A DNA stretch of 63,678 nucleotides, filler included, from Craspedostauros australis (Eukaryota), in NCBI GenBank assembly GCA_030167865.1. It is 11 parts of 11 records of this genome, joined end to end, with 100 filler letters (N's around TTAATTAATTAA, not from the genome) between each part and the next. Parts side by side here need not be neighbours in the genome. Positions count along the whole stretch, not along the records: positions 36,664 to 45,728 come from JALAGF010006154.1; 10 more parts are not named here. One strand, given 5' to 3'. The position numbers were made by a program, and so were the translations under genes. This document shows, piece by piece, positions 13,986-45,728 of the stretch (position 1 is the stretch's first letter; each line of letters begins with the position of its first letter). The notes under the pieces are model-generated. The model saw only the letters and a program-made list of their open reading frames with translations, searched no databases and was not told the origin of the DNA.

Positions 13986-14444
13986 CGCTGACCATGGCCA
14001 TGACCAGGTCACACGGAAATCAATGACGGGCGTGGTTCTACTGATCAACAACACCATCGTCAAAACCATATGCAAACGACAGAACACAGTGGAGACATCA
14101 ACCTACGGATCCGAACTGGTAGCCGCCAGGATAGCTACCGAGGCGGTCACAGGTCTGCGCTACATGCTGAGAGATCTCGGAGTCCCCATCGACGGACCCG
14201 CAATCATGCTCGGAGACAACAAAGCNGTGGTACTCAATACTACGGTTCCATCCTCAACGCTGAAGAAGAAACACTGCTCATTGGCCTTTCACCAAATCCG
14301 GGAATGCATCGCCGCTGGAATCATCGTGTTCGCCCACATTGCGTCAGTCGACAACATCGCTGACATACTCACCAAGCCCCTTTCCAAAACACCATTCCAC
14401 CACATCACGTCGAGAACGATATTCCGGAACTCAATCCATGAGTC
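13986..14444 (+). CDS. Copia RNase H domain (end of pol, partial)
   Basis: ADHGHDQVTRKSMTG...KRQNTVETSTYGSELVA...GDNK...LKKKH...NIADILTKPL. Confidence 0.93.
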
Positions 14445-14973
14445 CNNNNNNNNNNNNNNNNNNNNNNNNNNNNNNNNNNNNNNNNNNNNNNNNNNGACGA
14501 CCAGAGCAGACGATGATCCCGATATAATGGCCACGGAGACGCAAGAACCACCACCACCGAAGGAAGAACACACTATGAGCGTAAACATGGCAAGGTATCA
14601 ACAGACCTCCATGAAATACAGCCCGACATCAAAAACCCTTCGGCTAACCAGAACCCAACGAGAACCGAACCCCCTCGAAACGGCACAAAGGAAATCACCC
14701 AGAACCATCAAGCGCACCAAGAGCACATCGGCCTCGCCCAACCGCCAACAGACGCAAAATTCCAGTGTCGTATACGACATGACCGACAACCGTACCACGA
14801 ATCAGAACCACGAGCCAGCCGGTGCGCCAACCGACAAACTCTTGATCCGGCGTGGTGACACACCACCATCAGCCCTCACCGACGAATTCAGCACATTCTC
14901 GAGTATCAACCCCTCATGTGGAANNNNNNNNNNNNNNNNNNNNNNNNNNNNNNNNNNNNNNNNNNNNNNNNNN

Positions 14974-17614
14974 GACGACCAGAGCAGACGATGATCCCGA
15001 TATAATGGCCACGGAGACGCAAGAACCACCACCACCGAAGGAAGAACACACTATGAGCGTAAACATGGCAAGGTATCAACAGACCTCCATGAAATACAGC
15101 CCGACATCAAAAACCCTTCGGCTAACCAGAACCCAACGAGAACCGAACCCCCTCGAAACGGCACAAAGGAAATCACCCAGAACCATCAAGCGCACCAAGA
15201 NNNNNNNNNNNNNNNNNNNNNNNNNNNNNNNNNNNNNNNNNNNNNNNNNNNNNNNNNNNNNNNNNNNNNNNNNNNNNNNNNNNNNNNNNNNNNNNNNNNN
15301 NNNNNNNNNNNNNNNNNNNNTGATCCGGCGTGGTGACACACCACCATCAGCCCTCACCGACGAATTCAGCACATTCTCGAGTATCAACCCCTCATGTGGA
15401 AGCGACGTCCTCTGCTACCCAAGAGACATGCTGGAGACAGGGCCCATCATGCCGAGCAACCAATCACACGTCGCCACATCGACTAAGTTCCGGAAACCGC
15501 CACCTGGAGCCGCCATGCCAGCCATCAAGGAAGTTAACTGCGAAACTTCCTTCCACACGGGCCTGACACCTCGGGTTTTCGTTACACCTGAGCACGAAAC
15601 ATACAGGTGCGACATGTTGATTGCTGATCTCCAAGAAGACCTGGCACGGAACGCGACCGCACCCTCTATTGCATTCCGCGACATGAACATGCTTTCACCA
15701 CAAAAACGGAGCCGTCACAACCAGGACCCCGGACACAACCTCTCCCCATTCCAGACGAGGACACGCAAGATGACATTCCCAAAGTACACCCCGTTCTACG
15801 ATGGCATCCAATGCCCCGTCCCCGGATCCAGGGTACTATATCCCGCAGGAAAGAAGGGACCTTTCCAAGGAATCGTCGTCGGATACAGTGGCCGCAGAGT
15901 CCGAATCTTCTGCATGAAGGGAAACGATAACACATCAGCCGGCGAAATCACCCACGTAGAGAAACAATCCATCTACCCTCTCACCCTCTCCGAATACCTG
16001 GATGACAACCTCCAAACCANNNNNNNNNNNNNNNNNNNNNNNNNNNNNNNNNNNNNNNNNNNNNNNNNNCTCACCCTCTCCGAATACCTGGATGACAACC
16101 TCCAAACCACCGAGGTCCTCAGCATCGCCATAGCCGATGGCCAGTGCTTCTACACCAAAGAGGACGGCGCATGGGGCGAATCACCCGACGAGTACCGCGC
16201 AACCTTGCGGAAGCCATCCATATGCCACTTCTTCAAGGTGAGGATGAACCGGATCCCAATCATCCTCGCACGCGCAAGGAAGGCACGAATGGTCCGGAAA
16301 CAAAGCGACACCCTCGCCGTCAATCTCGCACGAGAGAAGAAAGCGCTCGCGAACGAGCCTTTTCCCCCTACCGATGAGGACGACATGGTCGACGGAATAC
16401 CATCCCTCGAAGACACCCGTCCCAGTCTCGAAGAGGGAGAGACACTAGAAGGCAGGTTCCTGGATGAGATCCCGGACGGATTCTTCGACAAGAAGATGAC
16501 CGCAGAAGAAGCCAGCCATCAGGAGTCTGAATCAGAGGTGTACCGCGATGGAGACCAAGAATCGCAGGAACCAGGAAGTGTGATTGACGTGGAAGCAGAG
16601 ATCGCAAGTGGGGCGGTGATCAGCCATCCCAGACCTCCCATCAGACGATCATCACGACCATCACCGGCGTCCAAAATCTTGACCGCCACGCGAGATGGAC
16701 AAGGGTATACCGACAAGGTACGCCCAAAGCCCATGATCCCGACCGACCACTCCGTGGACAGCGCGTCCGCCCAAGAGCCCGGCGACAGTGACGATTCTGG
16801 GTCCATCTTCCGACCAGAAGACAACTCATCCAACCGGAACCAAGCATCGCGACGACCTACCCCTGGAGCCAGCAGCAAGCAAAGCAACCGCCCCAAGAGA
16901 AAGGGGCTCTTCGATGAATCTGAGGATTCAACCGTTTCCTCGGGAATGTCAAGAATCAAGACAATCAAACAGGTCAGGTCCGCCAAGAAAACCACGAGTG
17001 GGACCATCAACGCGAAAGGAGCCCTCACCACGACCGCGGAGAATCCTCCCGATGCAACAGAGCCGATGCTCCCTATAACCCGGGATGAGCAACCAGAGGT
17101 CCCTACGCCACCGGAGGGGCCAGCCGATGATGACGTGCCGATAGCAACCGCGTACCCGGCACCTGCGAGCCACAATGAGGATGCGAACACCAGCACCCGC
17201 AGTTTCCCCGTTTTGAACCATCCCCTGCCATCGACACCCAACACTCCGGAGACCAGCAACGCTAACAAGAGGGCCCGAACGGAACCCCGACCAGCGATCG
17301 CATACCCGTCGCCCCGACGTCTTCGATCTGGGTACATCATGTCCGGCAACCCTGAACCAACGATGATGCAACCATCCATCTTCCAGATGCCTCCCGACCC
17401 CACAGCTCAGATCAAGGCCGTCCTCCAAAACGACGAGAGGACACCTATGGTTATCCAAACCCTTGCCGATATCCTTTTCTGCGGAGGGCTCGACCATATC
17501 AACCAAGTTCAGCAGGTCAGCATCACCTCCTCGCTGAACAAGGCATTGAAAGCCATGCTCACCAACCGCCGCCAAAGCCGCAGCTACTACGACAACAACG
17601 AACAGTCCGAATGA
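14974..17614 (+). CDS. Extra ORF (about 850 aa after removing duplicated overlap) between RNase H and 3' LTR; unknown function
   Basis: Long open frame, stop at 17612-17614 about 100 bp before the LTR; true start lost in the gap at 14445-14495; 14496-14923 is a duplicate copy. Confidence 0.8.
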
Positions 17615-17698
17615 AGCCCGCTCGCCGCCATCTTGGGCGGCGGAACAAACCACACTATGATTAGCTTTCTTGCTTTCAGTCAACTCACGTTTCAACGT

Positions 17699-17712
17699 GA
17701 GATGAAGGGGAG
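17699..17712 (+). other. Polypurine tract
   Basis: GAGATGAAGGGGAG directly abuts the LTR start. Confidence 0.85.
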
Positions 17713-17977
17713 TAATAGAGCTAAACTAGTAGCCACCTTAGCGAGAGAGACTACGAATCATCCGATTCGTCAGCATTCCAGTAGATCGAATGAATACTTC
17801 GCCGGACCCCACGTTTGGAGACAGATCCAGAACCTTGAAGCGGATCTTCGGAATTCGTGTCAGGGAACCAATGAGGTTCCGATAACCAAGTTCCTGACAC
17901 CCACCATCGCCAAAACGCCGACGCACGGAACCAAAGCCACAACAACGAGCATCATCGCCCATTGTCTCTCACAGAAC
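17713..17977 (+). repeat. 3' LTR of copia family A (truncated by scaffold end)
   Basis: Aligns by eye with 29567.. and 39236.. Confidence 0.92.
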
Positions 17978-28900: not shown

Positions 28901-31504
28901 TACACTGCATGTGCAAGGGTACAAACCTGGAACTTGGGATGCAGGCCTGAGGAGTACTTCAGTGATCTGGCCATCACACCAAAGGTGCGGTTGAGTCCCT
29001 CAACCTTGCCATTCATCCAAGCGCATCTGGCCCCAGTGGGTTCGAGAGTGTATCCCGCAGACCGGACGACCTCCTGGAAGGCACTCGATCATGCAAGCTC
29101 GCCACCAGTGTCGACCCTCACCGCCTTGCAACCATCCTTGCAACCAAACTCATGAAGCAGGTTGGCAAATATGTCCACAGGTGGGGATCTGGTCTTGGTA
29201 GGGGAACCCCTAAGTGTACCAAGTGCACACATCAGTGACAAGAAAGTACAAGTGTACCCTTCAAGAGGCTGGACCACCTGTTCGACTTGGCAGAGTTGCG
29301 TGACGACGCCTGTCCGTACTGAAGATCGGACGACCACATGAAGCCGTAGTCAGCATGGAATCTTGCACCAGTGGAGGGAACAGGGCTGCCATCTTGAGGT
29401 CCTTGAGGATCTGTCTGACACTGGGCTTGGCTGCATGTAGCACAATGCCGCATTGGATGTGCACAGTGGNNAGGAGGCCTGGAATACCAGAACAGTGCAT
29501 ATGGAGCCACTTCATGTGCGACATACCAGCGCAGCCCAGGCACATATGCCAGAGCTCCGCGCTGAGTAATAGAGCTAAACTAGTAACCATCTTAGTGAGA
29601 GAGACTACGAATCATCCGACTCGTCAGTATTCCAGTAGGTCGAACGGACACTTCGCCGACCCCCACGTTTGGAGACAGATCCAGAACCTTGAAGCGGATC
29701 TTCGGAATTCGTGTCAGGGAACCAATGNNNNNNNNNNNNNNNNNNNNNNNNNNNNNNNNNNNNNNNNNNNNNNNNNNGACACTTCGCCGACCCCCACGTT
29801 TGGAGACAGATCCAGAACCTTGAAGCGGATCTTCGGAATTCGTGTCAGGGAACCAATGGGGCTCTGATAACCAAGTTTCTGACACCCACCATCGCCAAAA
29901 CGCTGACGCACGGAACCAAAGCCACAACAACGCGCATCATCGCCCATTGTCTCTCACAGAACTCAGACAACGGATCTCGACCCACGGTACTTGGGCTACA
30001 CAACCCACACGCATTGTCATACAGGACACCACAGGAGATCCCCCTCGAAGAGAAGAACCATAGCACTAATCTCATAATCCGCACGTTTCTTCACCATCTA
30101 CCAGTATTCTCAATTGACTACTTGTGGAACAGAAGACTCACATTCGGACCGCTTGCCAGTCAAGCCTCTACAGCCTACAGCTAAAGAACAGCCAACAAGA
30201 CAACAGCCATTACGTTTGGGCTCTATTACTGAGTGCAGGCAGTGCACGCTGGACAGCGAACGCAGTTAGCTTGACATCATCATTGGTACTGAAGAAGTAG
30301 AGTCTGTTGCAACGACGCGTGGGCGCATCAATGGAACACCTGTGGCCATGGAAGGAGAGAACATACCCTGATGGACCGTCATGGAGCACATAGCACACAA
30401 AGTCATTGTCCTGCTGGCGAACAATGGCCTGCAACAAGACAAATTCTCAGCCAGATCAGGGCAGAGCATTGTGTTGGCCTAAATCACTCCACTGCACAAG
30501 CTGGGAATGGTGAGAGTGCTTTCTCTCTGGCATACCATACAGGTCGCACTGGCATTAGCTGCAGCCAGTGGGACAACATTGGTGTACCACTGATAGTCTT
30601 GGAGGATAGACCAGTCAGGCGTAGCACTGACGTTTGCACAAGGATATCATTCCCCCACATTGTCTATAGGGTTTCATGCATGCACCGTACTTCCAGAAGA
30701 CGGAGCAAGTGAACAGCGCAAGTGTGGGCAACTACAAAGGTGGCCAGCTTTGACAGAGTGATCTCTGGAGGGACAGACTGTGTGAACGAGGGCACTTCAT
30801 CAAGCGAATGTACTGCCTGTGTCCTGCTAGCGCATGGTGATAAAATATGCCGTTCGTCAAGAATTGTGCCCGATCCTGACCAGCAGGCCAAAATCGTGTT
30901 TAAGGGCATCCTGAATCGCATCAGACAAGATGAGATCAGAGAAGTCGCCGTCACCATGGTTCCTGAAGTGCTGTAGAGCATGAGCAGTTGCCTTTGACCT
31001 GTTGCAACCAAAGTGGGTGCAATAGCTTTTGTGAATCTTGTTGGCCTCATCAGGATGCTCTTGCACAAAGTGCATGAGATGGATGGTGCGCCCAAAGGCT
31101 TTGCACATACATGCCTTGTATCCCATGTAGCAACATGCTTCGCAGAAGGCATCTAGATTGGGCTTGTAGAAGGTATTGTGCCGCCTGTGTGACCAACTGT
31201 TGTCCTGTCGGTCGCCTTGTCCGCCACAACTACTGTGGGTTTGAGTGCAGTGGGCCTTGAGTGAAACAGCACTGCCAGGGGGATCTACAATTCTTGGGCA
31301 AGATGCTCGGCATGCAGATTGAAAGGCAGTGCCTTGGGCGATGTCACAGTGCGCAGCATGGTGTGGTAATGCTCCAGCATGTACCCGTGCTCACGCAGAT
31401 CCTCGAGAGAGATAGGACTCAGGTTTGTCGAGATGTACATGTGAGTATATGTCAAGATGTACGTGTATATGTGCATCGTTCACCCGTTATTCTCTCATAC
31501 GCAC
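25959..31504 (-). mobile_element. Degenerate Ty1/copia family C (many stops and frameshifts), with a probable 141-bp 3' LTR at 25959-26099
   Basis: Fragments LWHMCLGC, VRVDTGGELA, NGKVEGLNRTFG, IFDEAHF, YMDADWGA, SLITSKAEF; G-tract then TGTTGGCATC at 26099 on the minus strand. Confidence 0.85.
29567..30228 (+). mobile_element. Solo LTR of family A nested in family C, 5-bp TSD CTGAG
   Basis: CTGAG at 29562-29566 and 30229-30233; ends TAATAGAGC...GCTCTATTA; ~530 bp after removing the 50-N gap and 81-bp overlap. Confidence 0.95.
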
Positions 31505-39235: not shown

Positions 39236-39762
39236 TAATAGAGCTAAACTAGTACCCACCTTAGAGAGAGAGACTACAAATCATCCGACTTGTCAGCATT
39301 CCAGTAGATCGAACAGATACTTCACCAGCCCCCACGTTTGGGGACAGACCCAGAACATTGAAGCAGATCTTTGGAACCCGTGTCAAGGAACCAGAAGAGT
39401 TCCGATAACCAAGCTACTGACACCCACCATCGCCAAAACGCCGACACATGGAAACAGAGCCCCAGCAACGCGCATCATCGCCCATTGTCTCTCATGGAAC
39501 TCAGCCAATGGATCTCGACCCACGGTACTTGGGATACATGACCCATACACACTGTCATTCAGGACACCACAGGAGATCCTCCCCGCAGGGAAGAACCATA
39601 GCACTAATCTCATAATCCGCACGTTTCTTCACCATCTACCAGTATTCTCAATTGACTACTTGTGGAACAGAAGACTCACGTTCGGACCGCTTGCCAATCA
39701 AGCCTCTGCCCAAAGCTATCAACAGCCAACAAGACAACAGCCATTACGTTTGGGATCTATTA
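39236..39762 (+). repeat. 5' LTR of family A (527 bp)
   Basis: TAATAGAGC...GATCTATTA; boundaries match the TSD-defined solo LTR. Confidence 0.93.
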
Positions 39763-39775
39763 GATTAACAGTCAC
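39763..39775 (+). other. Putative primer-binding site complementary to the tRNA-Asn(GUU) anticodon arm
   Basis: GATTAACAGTCAC, reverse complement GTGACTGTTAATC, directly after the LTR. Confidence 0.7.
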
Positions 39776-39807
39776 AAAAGATTGTCAAGCTCTTAGACCC
39801 CTGCAAG

Positions 39808-42183
39808 ATGACCGTCACCCAACGCCTCCAAGCCTCCAACCGGCCACCTCCCAAGAGGAGCCCAGGAGATAGGACCCTAGCCTTCGAGACCCTTCCCGCG
39901 GACCCAAAGGACCCAAGCCTCTCTGCCATCCTTGATGGCACGCCAGGCTACCCAACAACCGGGCCATCTTCGCTCTCCTTCACAGAGATCGGAGTCGACT
40001 TCATCGAGGTCACCTTCCGACACCCCATCATCGTGGATGCATGGAATCGAAAGGAAAGAACCAACGAAGCCGAAATCGTGCGCCACGTCCACAAGACTAC
40101 CTGGAACGCGTTCACGGAACTCAAGCAAGAGTTTCGGATCAGCATCGAAACCGCCATGATCTTTGATCTCTTCCCATCCAAGACCCTCGCAGAAGAGAAG
40201 ACCATCTCCCAACTGCTGATCACCATCCATGAAGAAGCCACCGACATGAACCCGGCATTAATCATGTTCAACCTCAAGCACCCGGACGACGTGGCAAGGA
40301 ACTACGAGACAGGACTCCTCATCTACCACATCGGAGAATGGGTCAGATCCATCAAAGTTGAGGATGAATCCACTCTCGAATCCACCCTTGACGCAATGTT
40401 CACCGACACGGACACCACCGCCAAAGCCATGGCAGACTTCTGCCGTTCCGAACGATGCGGCAAACGCCACCACAACCAAGCTTGGTTGAATGTCATCGGG
40501 GAACACAAGAAGGCACTCTCCAACGCATCCGCGACCAGCGTCTCATCTGGGTCAGAAGCATCTACCCGTAGAACCGGACGCGACAACGACAGCCACCAAG
40601 GAGGAACCCCATCTGGGCTCTCCCTCATGCTCGGTGGGAACACCCCGCACCGTACCCCACCCGACTTCCCGAACGAAACCCAACTCTCCAGCATCGCCAA
40701 GCAAGGATCACAAAACACGTCACCAGCAATCATCGACACCCGTGGTACCACCCCGCCCAACGAAGATACCGAACCAGGCACCAACTACGACCAACACCAT
40801 GATAACGACGATACCGTAGACGTACCCGACAACCGCGGTCCCACAGGACGGAACCGACTTTTCCCCAACGTAGACCCAGCAACGATCGGTGACTTCGACC
40901 GCAACCCAACCGTCGCCAAGGTAGTAACCTTCGCCCCCGAAACAACCGCAAGAGGTCCAGGAGGTACCAACGCACCCCGGATGAACTACCCAGAGAATGA
41001 CGGGAACCGTCCACCCCACGATCGAAACCTGCATCCCTACCACGGTGCCGCGGATACACCGGCCTCACATGGTGTGGGTAACTATCGAGGCAACAACGGG
41101 CACGAACCCGTGAACCGAAACCCTGTCAGTAACCCACCCGCGAACCATGGGACAAACCGCCCGCACCGTGACAACCATGGGCCTCCAATTAACCATGGAC
41201 ACAACGGCGGCGACCCTTATGGGCATCCCCCTAACTTGGGGAACCAATTCCCTCATGGCCCACCGCTTCCGATGTACCACAGAACCCACCCAGGAGGATT
41301 CCCGCCCATTGGAATCCCTATCCCCATGGGCCATTTTCCCCATGGAACCGGAGGTTTTCCAATGCCACAAGGAGCCTTCACCCCCGTTGGACACCCTCAC
41401 CCCGGGTATCCACCACGACCACCCGCGTATGGGTACCGCCCAACCGATCCCAATGGAGGTTTCGGAAGACATGACCCACGCAACATGGGCCCGAACACCC
41501 CACACGGGCAACACGAACCCGGGTATGCACCCCATCGAGGATCCACCCGCAGCGAACCACCAGTCGCCCAGGCCAAGCTAACGAAGCGACGCCCCATCCC
41601 TGACTCCGTCAAATTCACGAGTGACGCGGCATCCTTCCAAGTGGTGAAACACCAAATCCATGCTCATCTCCTTGGAAACGACATGGCGTACCTGATCAAC
41701 GATCAGTTCCGGCACCGATACCATTCCCAAGGAATCCATGCGATCAAGGACCACATCGACCCGGTGACAGGAGTGCCAACAACCACCTCGCCAGAACAGG
41801 TCGCAAGCGACGTCAGGACCCTATTCGCGGGACTATACTCCGTCTTCGCCGGCGGCCCAGCACATGGACTCGCCACCAGAGGACTCCTCACCGAGGACGG
41901 TATCCTATTCTGGAATGAACTCCTCAATACCTACGATAGCGACTGGATCAGAGGAATGGAGGTCGACTCTCTGATGAAGAGAGTGCATGATTTCAATCCC
42001 GGCAGACAGGACCTGGGATCCTACCTGAAGGAGATCCAGGATATATTCGCGAACGTGAATTTCCTGGCAACCAACCCGGATCAACAAGTCTCCGACGCGC
42101 AACAACGCCGCACGCTCCTTAACCACCTCATCGGTTGCGACGACATCAACGTACGCACCATGGTCCGGAGCATCGAGCGAAGC
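39808..42183 (+). CDS. Gag of family A, unusually long with a Pro/Gly/His/Asn-rich middle (runs into gap)
   Basis: ATG 45 bp after the LTR; C-terminal DGILFWNELLNTYD...YLKEIQDIF capsid-like segment. Confidence 0.8.
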
Positions 42184-42318: not shown

Positions 42319-45300
42319 TGAATCCAACACCGAGATGGTCATCAATGCCATCTCGAAGAAACTACAGGAAGATCCCACCTTCATCTCACAAGAAGTATTC
42401 GATGGACTACCCGAGAAGGTCCGTCGAGTGATCATGAAACTCCGCAGCTCCCTCCGTTGGGCCCGCCGCAACAATGACCGGAACGGATCCGGATTCACCC
42501 GCGTCGAGGGCAAGAAGGAGCAGGAAGAACCCCAACCACCTGCCAGCGTGAAGCCCCCAGAGAAAGGGGAGGAAACCAAGCCACACAAGCAGTATGGAGG
42601 TGTCACCCACGCGAACCTGGCCAGGTACACCCCAGGATCCACCGAGGGAACCGATTCCCAGGACGAGAATGGCTCGGATCTATCCTCGATTGACGCTTCG
42701 GAGCTTGCCAAGTTCCTGGTCGATTATGGAGGATACGAGGAGAACGGCAACGACCGGCTCGTGAAGATGATCACGATGAGTGATTCATCTGGCACCACAA
42801 GCCCCGTCGACCCGCCCGAATCCAAACAACGCCAATCAGTGCCCGAACAGCTGATCAACCTGGCGACCTTCTCTCCGCAAACATACGCGGTATGCGACGG
42901 TGGCGCACAATGCTGCGTTATCGGGAACAAGGACCGGGTCTGGAAGATTGACTACATCTACCCGCATCGGACGTACAACATCGTCGGTGCCGTGGCCAGC
43001 ACGATGAGGAAGAACAACCTCGCGGTGGTAGACGCAAGTATCAAGGCCAGAACCAGGGAAGGCAACGAAGTGATCCTCCGGATCTACGAAGCCGCCCTGA
43101 ACGCTGACAGCCGGGTAACGCTGCTCTCCGACCACCAAATTCGGGCCAGTGGAACCGTCCTCGATACGGTCTCATCGGAACACCGAGCATCGTTCTCGAC
43201 ACCAGGCACAGGAAGACAATGCCTGATGCCTGACGAGGACACAACGATCAACTTGGAGATGCGGGACGCGCTGATGACGTTCGACGTTTTCCCCATCATG
43301 GAGGACGATGAGGATCTGCCCACCCACGACATCACCCCAAAGCAAGGATGGAACCCTTCGGATCACCAAGGAGGACACGTATGCAACGTGCCCATGGGTT
43401 GCTACCTTACCAGGGACCCGAACGGAGGAGAGAAGGCAGTTGACTGGGATGGCCGACCTGATGCACCGCATGACGCTGGAACGATGGATCCAAGCGCCCG
43501 CAACGCATCGATGGATCCCATGGAACCCGGGACAAGCCAGGCCACGGTCGGCATCCCGGATAATCCCATAGAAGGACGAGAACCCATGGACCCCAACGCC
43601 CGTCATCCAGACGAGCACGCCACAGAAGGTCTCAACCATGTCAACCAGGAGTACCCCAAGGTGGACGCATTCCTTGACACTCTAAGTCTCGAGGAGCTCA
43701 TTGGAATGTCACATGCAATTGACACGGTAACGTTCGCGAAATCGGCCACCGACACAGCCATCTCGATCCAAGACACCCTCTTCGACCTGGTAGACAATCT
43801 CTCTGCTGGAGACATCGACCACTTATACAGGGAACTGGGCATTGATCGCAAGGCCAACGCGGTAGGAACGGACAAGAAAGGATACACCGAGTCAACCAAC
43901 GTACCACCGACAAAGGTACCAGACCTGGATGACGAGGCAGACAGCGCCATCTCATCCTTACACTCGGTAGGATCCGAACCGGCGTTCCAAAGAAATCGGG
44001 AGACATTTCGCATCCCCAACGAGATCGGCGTGACCAAGGCAACACGCGCTGACACCCTCCGGGGAGACCCGCGAAGCGCACCTGGATACCACGGGCACAC
44101 CAAAAGCGAGAACCCCGTCGGGATTGATGATCCGGGAAAGGACAATCCCATGGACACCATGGACCGACACCCTGCGGAAGCTATGACCGAGTACAGCCAC
44201 CAAGGGTTCCCGTTCCGAGCTAAATGGAAGTCCATCGATCTTCACAAGATCCAACCGTACCTCGGGTACCTACCCACGCACGTGATCAAACAAACCCTTG
44301 CCAGAACCACACAACTCATGCGGGCAGTGATCACTTACCCTATGCGAAGGCACAAGAAGTCCAGATTCGAGTGGATGCGACGACAGCGAATCCGGGAGAT
44401 CGTGGCGACGGACACCATATTCTCCAACGTCAAGTCTTTTGGAGACGGATACTCCATGGCACAAATCTTCNNNNNNNNNNNNNNNNNNNNNNNNNNNNNN
44501 NNNNNNNNNNNNNNNNNNNNNNNNNNNNNNNNNNNNNNNNNNNNNNNNNNNNNNNNNNNNNNNNNNNNNNNNNNNNNNNNNNNNNNNNNNNNNNNNNNNN
44601 NNNNNNNNNNNNNNNNNNNNNNNNNNNNNNNNNNNNNNNNNNGGAGAGAAGGTCCTCAAGCTTCTTAGGGACCTCCACATCAAATCAAGGCTGACAGAAC
44701 CGCACAACCAGCAACAGAACCCGGCCAAGCACAACGCCATCCTGTACATGAAGTGATGTGTCACAACACTCATTGACCGGACAGGGGCACCGCCAAAAGC
44801 ATGGTACCACGCTTTCCGATACATGTGCTACGTGCACAACCATACATCAGACCCGTCCCTACGATACGCAATCCCACACACCGTACGACACGGAGAAACC
44901 GTCGACATCTCTGCGCTCTTGACCTTCCAATTCTACGAGAAGATCTTGTACCATGACCCCAACGCTACCTTCCCGAACTCGAAGGAGAAATCAGGATACT
45001 GGCTCGGCATGGCAGAGTCCCATGGGGACTTCCTCACATACCACGTGCTGGACGATGAATCCCGACGAGGACTGGTACGGAGCGTGGTCCGCCCCTTCCG
45101 GAAGGGTATAAACAACAACAGGCGTGTCACCTTCGACCAAGACATGGACCCCGAGGCAGATAACCCCAGCACACGGACCCCGCTGGAACTGTCCGGTACC
45201 CCACAAGGATGGAAGACCAAGACCCCACCGAAAAGAGGGTATGCGGCGACGGCCAAGACGACACACCCGCGGGCATGGGAGAACAAGACCGACAAGATGA

Positions 45301-45728
45301 AACGAACCGCTGGGATCCCTGATTCAGGGGAGGCACGGAACACAGGACCCGTCACCCGATCCCAAACGCTAACCAAGCGGACAGCGAAGGCACCCACGAC
45401 GCGTGCCACCGAGGAGGACAAACCGCGAACGAACCGCGATACGCCAGACAGGGGAGACTCTGACCCAGGGTCTTCGTACCTTCCATGTTCGTCGGGACCA
45501 CCATCATACCAACGCATGGATGACGGCCCCGAAGAAAGGGGAGGGAATAAGAGGACCAAGCAAAACAAACNATNNGTTTTGTCAACAGGTACCAGGAAAG
45601 GCATCCCATGGAAGAACATCGTCCATGGAACGATCAGATCCATAATCCAGACCATCGCAGCGGACCCAGTCACGACAGGCGTGAATACCGCGCCACCGCA
45701 AAGGGTACCCACCCTAACAAACCATCCA
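42319..45728 (+). pseudogene. Gag end/Pol of family A (protease, integrase) with premature TGA at 44754-44756
   Basis: YAVCDGGAQCCVIG, TLLSDHQIRASG, YLGYLPTHVIKQTLARTTQ, VATDTIFS, TEPHNQQQNPA, GETVDISALLTFQFYE. Confidence 0.85.

What the first reader, a model, noticed from the sequence alone, without database searches (positions are those of the whole stretch)
39763..39775. Primer-binding site matches the anticodon arm of tRNA-Asn: half-tRNA priming with a non-Met tRNA
Seen: directly after the 5' LTR is GATTAACAGTCAC rather than TGG...; its reverse complement GTGA-CTGTTAA-TC reads as anticodon stem, a 7-nt loop with GTT anticodon, and two paired bases (positions 39-40). Established: GACTGTTAATC is the anticodon arm of tRNA-Asn(GUU) in yeast and E. 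coli; Drosophila copia and yeast Ty5 prime from a tRNAiMet 5' fragment ending at about this position. Inference: this family primes from a cleaved tRNA-Asn 5' half, which could link its activity to stress-induced tRNA fragments.
Basis: partly seen in the sequence, partly recalled or inferred. Interest (0 to 1): 0.7.

Follow-up and report, generated by a model that had tools for sequence, protein, structure and literature searches.

The report
Copia primer site for half tRNA-Asn
Right after its left terminal repeat, this copia-type jumping gene carries a short site that pairs with the anticodon arm of the host's asparagine tRNA, so it most likely starts copying itself from a cut tRNA, an uncommon but already described trick that has been reported with this same tRNA in rust fungi.

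Summary
The site is real. The LTR is 39236-39762 and GATTAACAGTCACA (39763-39776) abuts it. It complements nt 27-40 of the host's nuclear tRNA-Asn(GUU) with one CpG-type change at 39774; 10 of 19 family junctions read GATTAACAGTCGCA, a 14/14 match. That 14-mer occurs 73 times in the genome (0.44 expected): 6 tRNA-Asn genes and 67 sites, all directly after a CA or TA end, in nine sequence groups. The implied primer end, nt 40, is the copia/Ty5 register. It is not new in kind: half-tRNA sites for Ile, Arg, Lys and Tyr are published, and Asn-GTT itself is reported for rust-fungus Helenus elements (PMC10886601, text and Data S1). This scan noted the same site on other DNA (7 notes). Added here: the family's nearest metagenomic relatives use the same register with tRNA-Ile (22 of 60 clusters; C opposite inosine 34 in 21), so the primer tRNA was swapped within one TA-ended clade. 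Cleavage and priming are inferred, not shown. The stress-fragment link is unsupported: reported stress halves end in the loop at about 30-35 nt, short of nt 40.

The parts
39236..39762 (+). 5' LTR of 'family A', 527 nt, non-canonical ends TAATAGA...TCTATTA (TA..TA, inverted)
   Evidence: 25 of 30 full-length copies end TA..TA; 8 of 20 copies that are neither 5' nor 3' LTRs have an exact 5-bp target duplication, 3 more with one mismatch
39763..39776 (+). Primer-binding site, complement of nuclear tRNA-Asn(GUU) nt 40 down to 27; G>A at 39774 in this copy
39777..39807 (+). 31-nt leader between the site and the gag ATG; no significant extra pairing to tRNA nt 1-26 in this family
   Evidence: mean shuffle p 0.62, 10 copies; no unusual fold, z -0.01
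39808..42183 (+). gag-position ORF, open to an assembly gap; no Pfam match
   Evidence: 79-94% identical to ORFs at the same place in sister copies
42319..45728 (+). pol, protease-like and integrase part, with gaps; the contig ends at 45728, so RT, RNase H and 3' LTR of this copy are not in the window
   Evidence: sister copies L103 and L107 continue into RT and RNase H (RVT_2 E 1.4e-21 for L107; rve only E 0.0098, under cut-off)
13986..17612 (+). 3' part of another family A copy on a different contig: RNase H and a long C-terminal extension of Pol
17699..17712 (+). Polypurine tract GAGATGAAGGGGAG abutting a family A 3' LTR (starts 17713), overlapped by an 8-bp hairpin at 17684-17701
   Evidence: same in 5 of 5 other 3' LTR copies examined
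29567..30228 (+). Family A solo LTR (holds an assembly gap) with 5-bp target duplication CTGAG

Best explanation
The 14 nt are the minus-strand primer-binding site of a Ty1/copia retrotransposon that primes from a 5' fragment of cytosolic tRNA-Asn(GUU) ending at nt 40. Shown: position directly after the 5' LTR; complementarity to nt 27-40 of the host's nuclear tRNA-Asn and not to its organellar Asn tRNAs; sharing of exactly this stretch by nine sequence groups with different LTR ends; the same register with another tRNA (Ile) in the family's nearest relatives. Inferred from copia/Ty5: the tRNA's anticodon arm is opened and pairs with the site, the tRNA is cut between nt 40 and 41 to give a 3'-OH (nuclease unknown here; a review names host RNase P for Ty5), and RT extends straight into the LTR's last base. 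Because the polypurine tract also abuts the LTR, the cDNA should be blunt at the LTR ends with TA-3' termini, and integration makes 5-bp duplications. The G>A in this copy is most likely post-insertion methyl-CpG decay.
For: Host tRNA-Asn: 6 identical nuclear genes with arm TGCGA-CTGTTAA-TCGCA; two organellar-type Asn genes differ and match only 7 nt. 67 of 67 non-tRNA exact 14-mers follow CA (53) or TA (14), none continues into tRNA nt 41, and only 10 of 67 extend one base to nt 26. Integrase coding sequence lies downstream in five of the eight other groups, only 29-43% identical to a family-A-type integrase that is 47-53% identical to the window's, so the sharing is not recent descent. Of 60 clusters of RT relatives (best 80 of 408 loci), 22 carry the complement of tRNA-Ile(AAU) nt 27-40 after an LTR-like end, 21 of them with C opposite nt 34, as expected for inosine; 27 Ile-type hits on the sense strand, 0 on the other strand. 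L181 has PPT, a TAATGAG..CTCATTA LTR and GATTAACAGTC. 6 of 9 non-exact family A sites change at the CpG. nt 40 register: PMC1181622.
Against: No cDNA, particle or small-RNA data; everything is sequence inference. Within family A the site is not clearly better kept than its flanks (4.5% against 3.0% and 5.3%). 36 of 60 relative clusters gave no identifiable site (many are short, some are not). The tRNA-Ile used for the relatives is this host's, not theirs. Three of the nine groups were not shown to be copia elements. The second Asn-type relative, L231, matches only 10 nt, and the loose pattern that found both gave 4 sense and 2 antisense hits.
Confidence: 0.88

Rival explanations
1. The primer is a pre-existing stress-induced 5' half of tRNA-Asn, so transposition is gated by stress cleavage.
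For: Diatom copia elements are stress-induced at the RNA level (PMC2806351, passages); long tRNA fragments rise under iron starvation in a diatom (PMC4247016, passages).
Against: Reported halves are cut in the loop and are 30-35 nt; they would stop 5-10 nt short of nt 40 and pair only part of the site. The word Asn does not occur in the main text of PMC4247016 (its Table S3 was not read).
Confidence: 0.08
2. The site binds intact tRNA-Asn (or its anticodon arm) as a structural or packaging partner and priming happens otherwise, for example by self-priming.
For: Complementarity alone does not show cleavage; self-priming and tRNA-free sites exist among copia elements (PMC6317226; PMC5445492).
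Against: Longest complement between the site and the LTR is 5 nt; no TGG-type 3'-end site follows the LTR; the match stops exactly at nt 40 next to the LTR end in 67 of 67 sites.
Confidence: 0.04
3. Chance match, or a captured piece of a tRNA gene passively inherited with the family.
For: This copy alone has only 11 contiguous matches; flanks are as conserved as the site within the family.
Against: 73 exact against 0.44 expected; shared by groups with unrelated flanks; replaced by the matching stretch of another tRNA in relatives, with C opposite inosine, which a DNA copy of a tRNA gene would not have.
Confidence: 0.01

Closest known systems
Rust-fungus Helenus TRIMs and partner Copia families with anticodon-loop sites (Kojima 2024, PMC10886601; section 3.6 read whole, supplement searched)
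   Same: tRNA-Asn-GTT named as primer; 7 families in Data S1 begin their internal part with (c)gattaacagt..., the same arm; 5-bp target duplications.
   Different: Those are non-coding fungal TRIMs; 6 of the 7 have one extra C before the motif and the distal bases differ. The text lists this primer once as Asn-GTT and twice as Asp; the sequences fit Asn. Here it is a coding element with TA..TA ends in a probably algal host.
Drosophila copia and yeast Ty5, Osser, 1731 (Hemivirus; PMC1181622 and PMC5371799, passages)
   Same: Ty1/copia domain order; priming from nt 40 in the anticodon stem.
   Different: They use initiator tRNA-Met; priming was shown experimentally there and is only inferred here.
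Plant Bianca lineage (half tRNA-Ile with inosine 34; PMC6317226, passages)
   Same: Non-Met half tRNA; the family's metagenomic relatives show the same Ile site with C opposite nt 34.
   Different: Different tRNA for family A itself; no relationship of the RTs was tested.
Candida Tca elements (internal tRNA-Arg(UCU); PMC4139406) and fungal FunCo1 (internal tRNA-Lys; PMC5445492), passages
   Same: Copia elements with a site complementary to an internal part of a non-Met tRNA.
   Different: Different tRNA; some Candida sites are long, family A's is 14 nt.
Diatom CoDi elements (Maumus 2009, PMC2806351, passages; supplement not readable)
   Same: Copia elements of 5-8 kb; three families (CoDi3.2, 4.2, 4.3) lack TG/CA ends, as family A does; Chromo hits in some relatives.
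   Different: The main text never mentions tRNA or a primer site. No named CoDi sequence was available for comparison, so placement in CoDi is my inference.

Membership tests
Ty1/copia LTR retrotransposon | Integrase upstream of RT and RNase H | tested here: met
   sister copies L103 and L107; this copy's contig ends in the integrase region
Ty1/copia LTR retrotransposon | RVT_2-type reverse transcriptase | tested here: met
   E 1.4e-21 for L107
Ty1/copia LTR retrotransposon | LTRs, polypurine tract, 5-bp target duplication | tested here: met
   no single contig holds both LTRs of one copy
Ty1/copia LTR retrotransposon | TG...CA LTR ends (usual, with known exceptions) | tested here: not met
   TA..TA in 25 of 30; exceptions known in CoDi
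Half-tRNA-primed copia elements (works like copia/Ty5) | Site next to the 5' LTR complementary to a host tRNA anticodon arm, ending at nt 40 | tested here: met
Half-tRNA-primed copia elements (works like copia/Ty5) | No site for a tRNA 3' CCA end | tested here: met
   (no TGG start), 30 host tRNA calls only, not the whole set
Half-tRNA-primed copia elements (works like copia/Ty5) | Cut tRNA joined to strong-stop cDNA | not testable with these tools
   no RNA holder listed
Genus Hemivirus (strict) | Primer is the initiator tRNA-Met fragment (from recall of the genus definition; members listed in PMC1181622) | tested here: not met
   site matches tRNA-Asn
Genus Hemivirus (strict) | RT regions proposed to separate half- from full-tRNA primers (PMC1181622) | not tested
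   reference RT sequences were not fetched
Diatom CoDi I/II clades | RT groups with named CoDi elements | tested here: inconclusive
   120 best relatives listed carry no element names; no named CoDi in the tree

The most novel reading that the evidence does not exclude
In this TA-ended, probably diatom copia clade the primer tRNA is an exchangeable part (Ile in most, Asn in family A and L181) while the cut stays at nt 40 and LTR, primer site and polypurine tract abut without spacers. That would mean the cut is set by the geometry of the tRNA-site duplex (element-directed, by the element's own RNase H or by a recruited host nuclease) and not by tRNA identity or a pre-existing fragment pool, and that its integrase joins unprocessed TA-3' ends. 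It would give a natural swap series for the open question of how half-tRNA primers are made.
Probability: 0.3. Interest if true: 0.6.

Novelty: new member of a known kind. Interest (0 to 1): 0.27.

Why it matters
It extends half-tRNA priming, with tRNA-Asn, to nine sequence groups in one probably algal genome, and explains why tools that look for a TGG site and TG..CA ends would miss or mis-bound these elements. The Ile/Asn exchange at a fixed register, with C opposite inosine in the Ile type, is good indirect evidence that a mature edited tRNA is the partner and offers a test case for how the nt-40 end is made. The mechanism class and even this tRNA are already published, so the gain is in range and detail.

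Tried and rejected
Self-priming: longest site-to-LTR complement 5 nt in two copies; rejected. Organellar tRNA-Asn as primer: 7-nt match only; rejected. Extended pairing of the leader with tRNA nt 1-26: mean shuffle p 0.009-0.067 in six of nine groups, 0.15 in one, 0.62 in family A and 0.73 in another, but tRNA-Asn ranked 2nd to 19th of 30 tRNA calls as partner; inconclusive, not claimed. Direction of the Ile/Asn switch: quick RT tree of 65 rows (one per cluster, short unlabelled rows under 280 aa left out; the careful search did not finish) leaves family A and the two Asn-type relatives on open or weak branches; unresolved. Naming the clade through database labels failed. PDB search with the integrase part gave nothing. 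Expression and tRNA ends: no RNA holder listed; the one same-species contig set laid nothing on the tRNA gene; no evidence either way. Ile-type site after a YA end in this genome: none; without that condition 3 exact copies. One 13-mer hit (L002) has no LTR-like context and is taken as chance; another (L109) is a CpG variant in a different group. Paper searches for a described diatom primer site listed none; the library lacks most subscription papers and database pages, and the supplement of PMC2806351 could not be read, so a prior diatom record is not excluded.

Full report
Setting. The window is a string of short contigs joined by 100-nt spacers, with many internal gaps. The finding lies on the contig spanning 36664-45728. 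The genome holds nuclear, plastid-type and mitochondrial-type tRNA clusters, and the retroelements resemble diatom copia elements; that the host is a diatom is my inference, not a tested result.

Observation. GATTAACAGTCAC is at 39763-39775. Alignment of three window copies and 30 genome copies fixes the LTR at 39236-39762, with ends TAATAGA...TCTATTA. Of these 30 copies 25 end TA..TA; 5 are followed by the motif, 5 are preceded by the polypurine tract, and of the other 20, 8 have an exact 5-bp target duplication and 3 have one mismatch. The motif starts at the first base after the LTR.

Host tRNA. A pattern search found 8 tRNA-Asn(GTT) genes: 6 identical nuclear-type genes with arm TGCGA-CTGTTAA-TCGCA and 2 in organelle-type clusters with other arms. 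The complement of nt 27-40 of the nuclear gene is GATTAACAGTCGCA. The window copy differs at 39774 and so matches 11 nt contiguously; a sister copy matches 14; the next best of 30 tRNA calls matches 6-7 nt (this is a sample of the host's tRNAs, not all). Among 19 readable family A junctions 10 are exact, 7 have one change, 1 two and 1 three; 6 of the 9 altered ones change at the CpG.

Genome-wide test. The 14-mer occurs 73 times exactly (0.44 expected) and 99 times with up to one mismatch, against 5 for the reversed control. I fetched all 73 exact places: 6 are the tRNA genes, and all 67 others follow CA (53) or TA (14), fall into nine groups by flanking sequence, never continue into tRNA nt 41 and extend to nt 26 in 10. 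Family A gives 10 of the 67. Five of the other eight groups have integrase coding sequence downstream, clearly more distant from family A's type; three groups were not shown to be coding elements.

The element. After a 31-nt leader an ORF starts at 39808. Sister copies show gag, protease-like motif (by eye), integrase, RT, RNase H in copia order; RT matches RVT_2 at E 1.4e-21. The polypurine tract abuts the 3' LTR in all six 3' ends seen. In L107 the RT-RNase H frame runs on for about 860 residues to near the tract, and this extension is present in other copies.

Relatives. An RT-RNase H profile found 408 relatives in metagenomes, of which the best 80 were kept, 44-55% identical, forming 60 clusters. 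Unbiased word counting after CA/TA in non-coding parts gave GTTTATCAGAC in 14 clusters, which is the complement of nt 30-40 of tRNA-Ile(AAU) with C opposite nt 34. Allowing small errors, 22 clusters carry it (20, 2), 21 with that C, several with a one-base insertion; it was found 27 times on the sense strand and never on the other. Two clusters carry an Asn-type site: L181 (11 nt, after a PPT and an LTR with 7-bp inverted TA ends) and, more weakly, L231 (10 nt). 36 clusters gave no site. LTRs of these relatives also mostly begin and end with TA or TT/AA. So the register is fixed and the tRNA differs within one clade; the direction is unresolved. Three Ile-type sites exist in this genome too.

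Mechanism. Shown: position, complementarity, sharing across groups, swap in relatives. Inferred: opening of the anticodon arm, a cut between nt 40 and 41, extension from the new 3'-OH into the LTR's last base, blunt cDNA ends. Hemivirus-type elements start from the 3'-OH of nt 40 (PMC1181622, passages); a review attributes the Ty5 cut to host RNase P (PMC5371799, passages). Self-priming and organellar primers were tested and rejected. Extra pairing with tRNA nt 1-26 is suggestive in six groups, absent in family A, and not specific to tRNA-Asn.

Stress link. Stress halves are cut in the loop and are about 35 nt (PMC7515703, passages); long fragments in a diatom are 30-35 nt and rise under iron starvation (PMC4247016, passages). 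They end short of nt 40. No RNA data for this organism could be used. The link is possible but has no support here.

What is known. Half-tRNA sites are reported for Met and Ile in plants, the Ile type with inosine (PMC6317226, passages), for Arg in Candida (PMC4139406, passages), for Lys in fungal FunCo1 (PMC5445492, passages), and for Tyr, Ile, iMet and Asn-GTT in rust-fungus Helenus and partner Copia families (PMC10886601, section 3.6 read whole); in its Data S1 seven families begin with the same arm. The diatom CoDi paper does not mention tRNA in its main text and lists three families without TG/CA ends (PMC2806351, passages; supplement unreadable). Searches listed no paper on diatom primer sites. 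The scan's own notes hold seven earlier reports of an Asn half-tRNA site on other genomes (unchecked AI notes, not counted as support); a word search for the Ile/inosine switch found none.

Verdict. A real, well-supported primer-binding site for a half tRNA-Asn; a new member of a known kind. Interest 0.27.

Noticed in passing
window 39236-39762, 29567-30228, 17713-17977; L169-L248: Family A LTRs end TA..TA instead of TG..CA yet make 5-bp target duplications; most metagenomic relatives with a readable LTR also start and end with TA (or TT/AA). Primer site and polypurine tract both abut the LTR.
   Followed up: partly
L107:762-3359 (-); window 14446-17612: Pol continues in frame for about 860 residues after RNase H, up to the polypurine tract. 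No Pfam match; a 195-residue part gives only weak PWWP/Tudor-like look-alikes (scores 0.76-0.82), a lead for a chromatin-reading module.
   Followed up: partly
L169-L248 (e.g. L172:3681, L175:4730, L183:786): Relatives carry a half tRNA-Ile site with C opposite inosine 34, as in plant Bianca; several have a one-base insertion inside the site (L189-L191, L210, L221, L223, L237).
   Followed up: yes
window 24812-24067 (-), site at 24066-24055: The other copia family in the window has TG..CA ends and is followed by the palindrome CGTTTCGAAACG (9 exact and 1 with one change among 12 loci), with no match among 30 tRNA calls and no complement in the LTR; it recalls the palindromic hairpin site of fungal GalEa (PMC5445492).
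   Followed up: partly
window 17684-17701: An 8-bp hairpin overlaps the start of the polypurine tract in all six family A 3' ends seen.
   Followed up: partly
L047, L044, L046, L049, L060, L071 downstream of the site: Six other groups share a loose motif (…TGA.TG.GTGA) 15-30 nt after the site that can pair with the tRNA's 5' end; not specific to tRNA-Asn in my control.
   Followed up: partly
L249-L251: Three copies of an Ile-type site in this genome follow TG rather than CA/TA; in L251 a gag-like ORF follows.
   Followed up: no
L007:1470-1543: The nuclear tRNA-Asn has a weak acceptor stem (U1-A72, U6.U67 mismatch), which could ease release of a 5' part.
   Followed up: no
whole window: Spacers of N with TTAATTAATTAA join separate contigs; 50-N gaps are often flanked by duplicated sequence, so many direct repeats here are assembly artefacts.
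   Followed up: yes
P0165, P0166: Copia RT relatives are filed in databases under a cyanobacterial metagenome-assembled genome, probably eukaryotic contamination of that bin.
   Followed up: no
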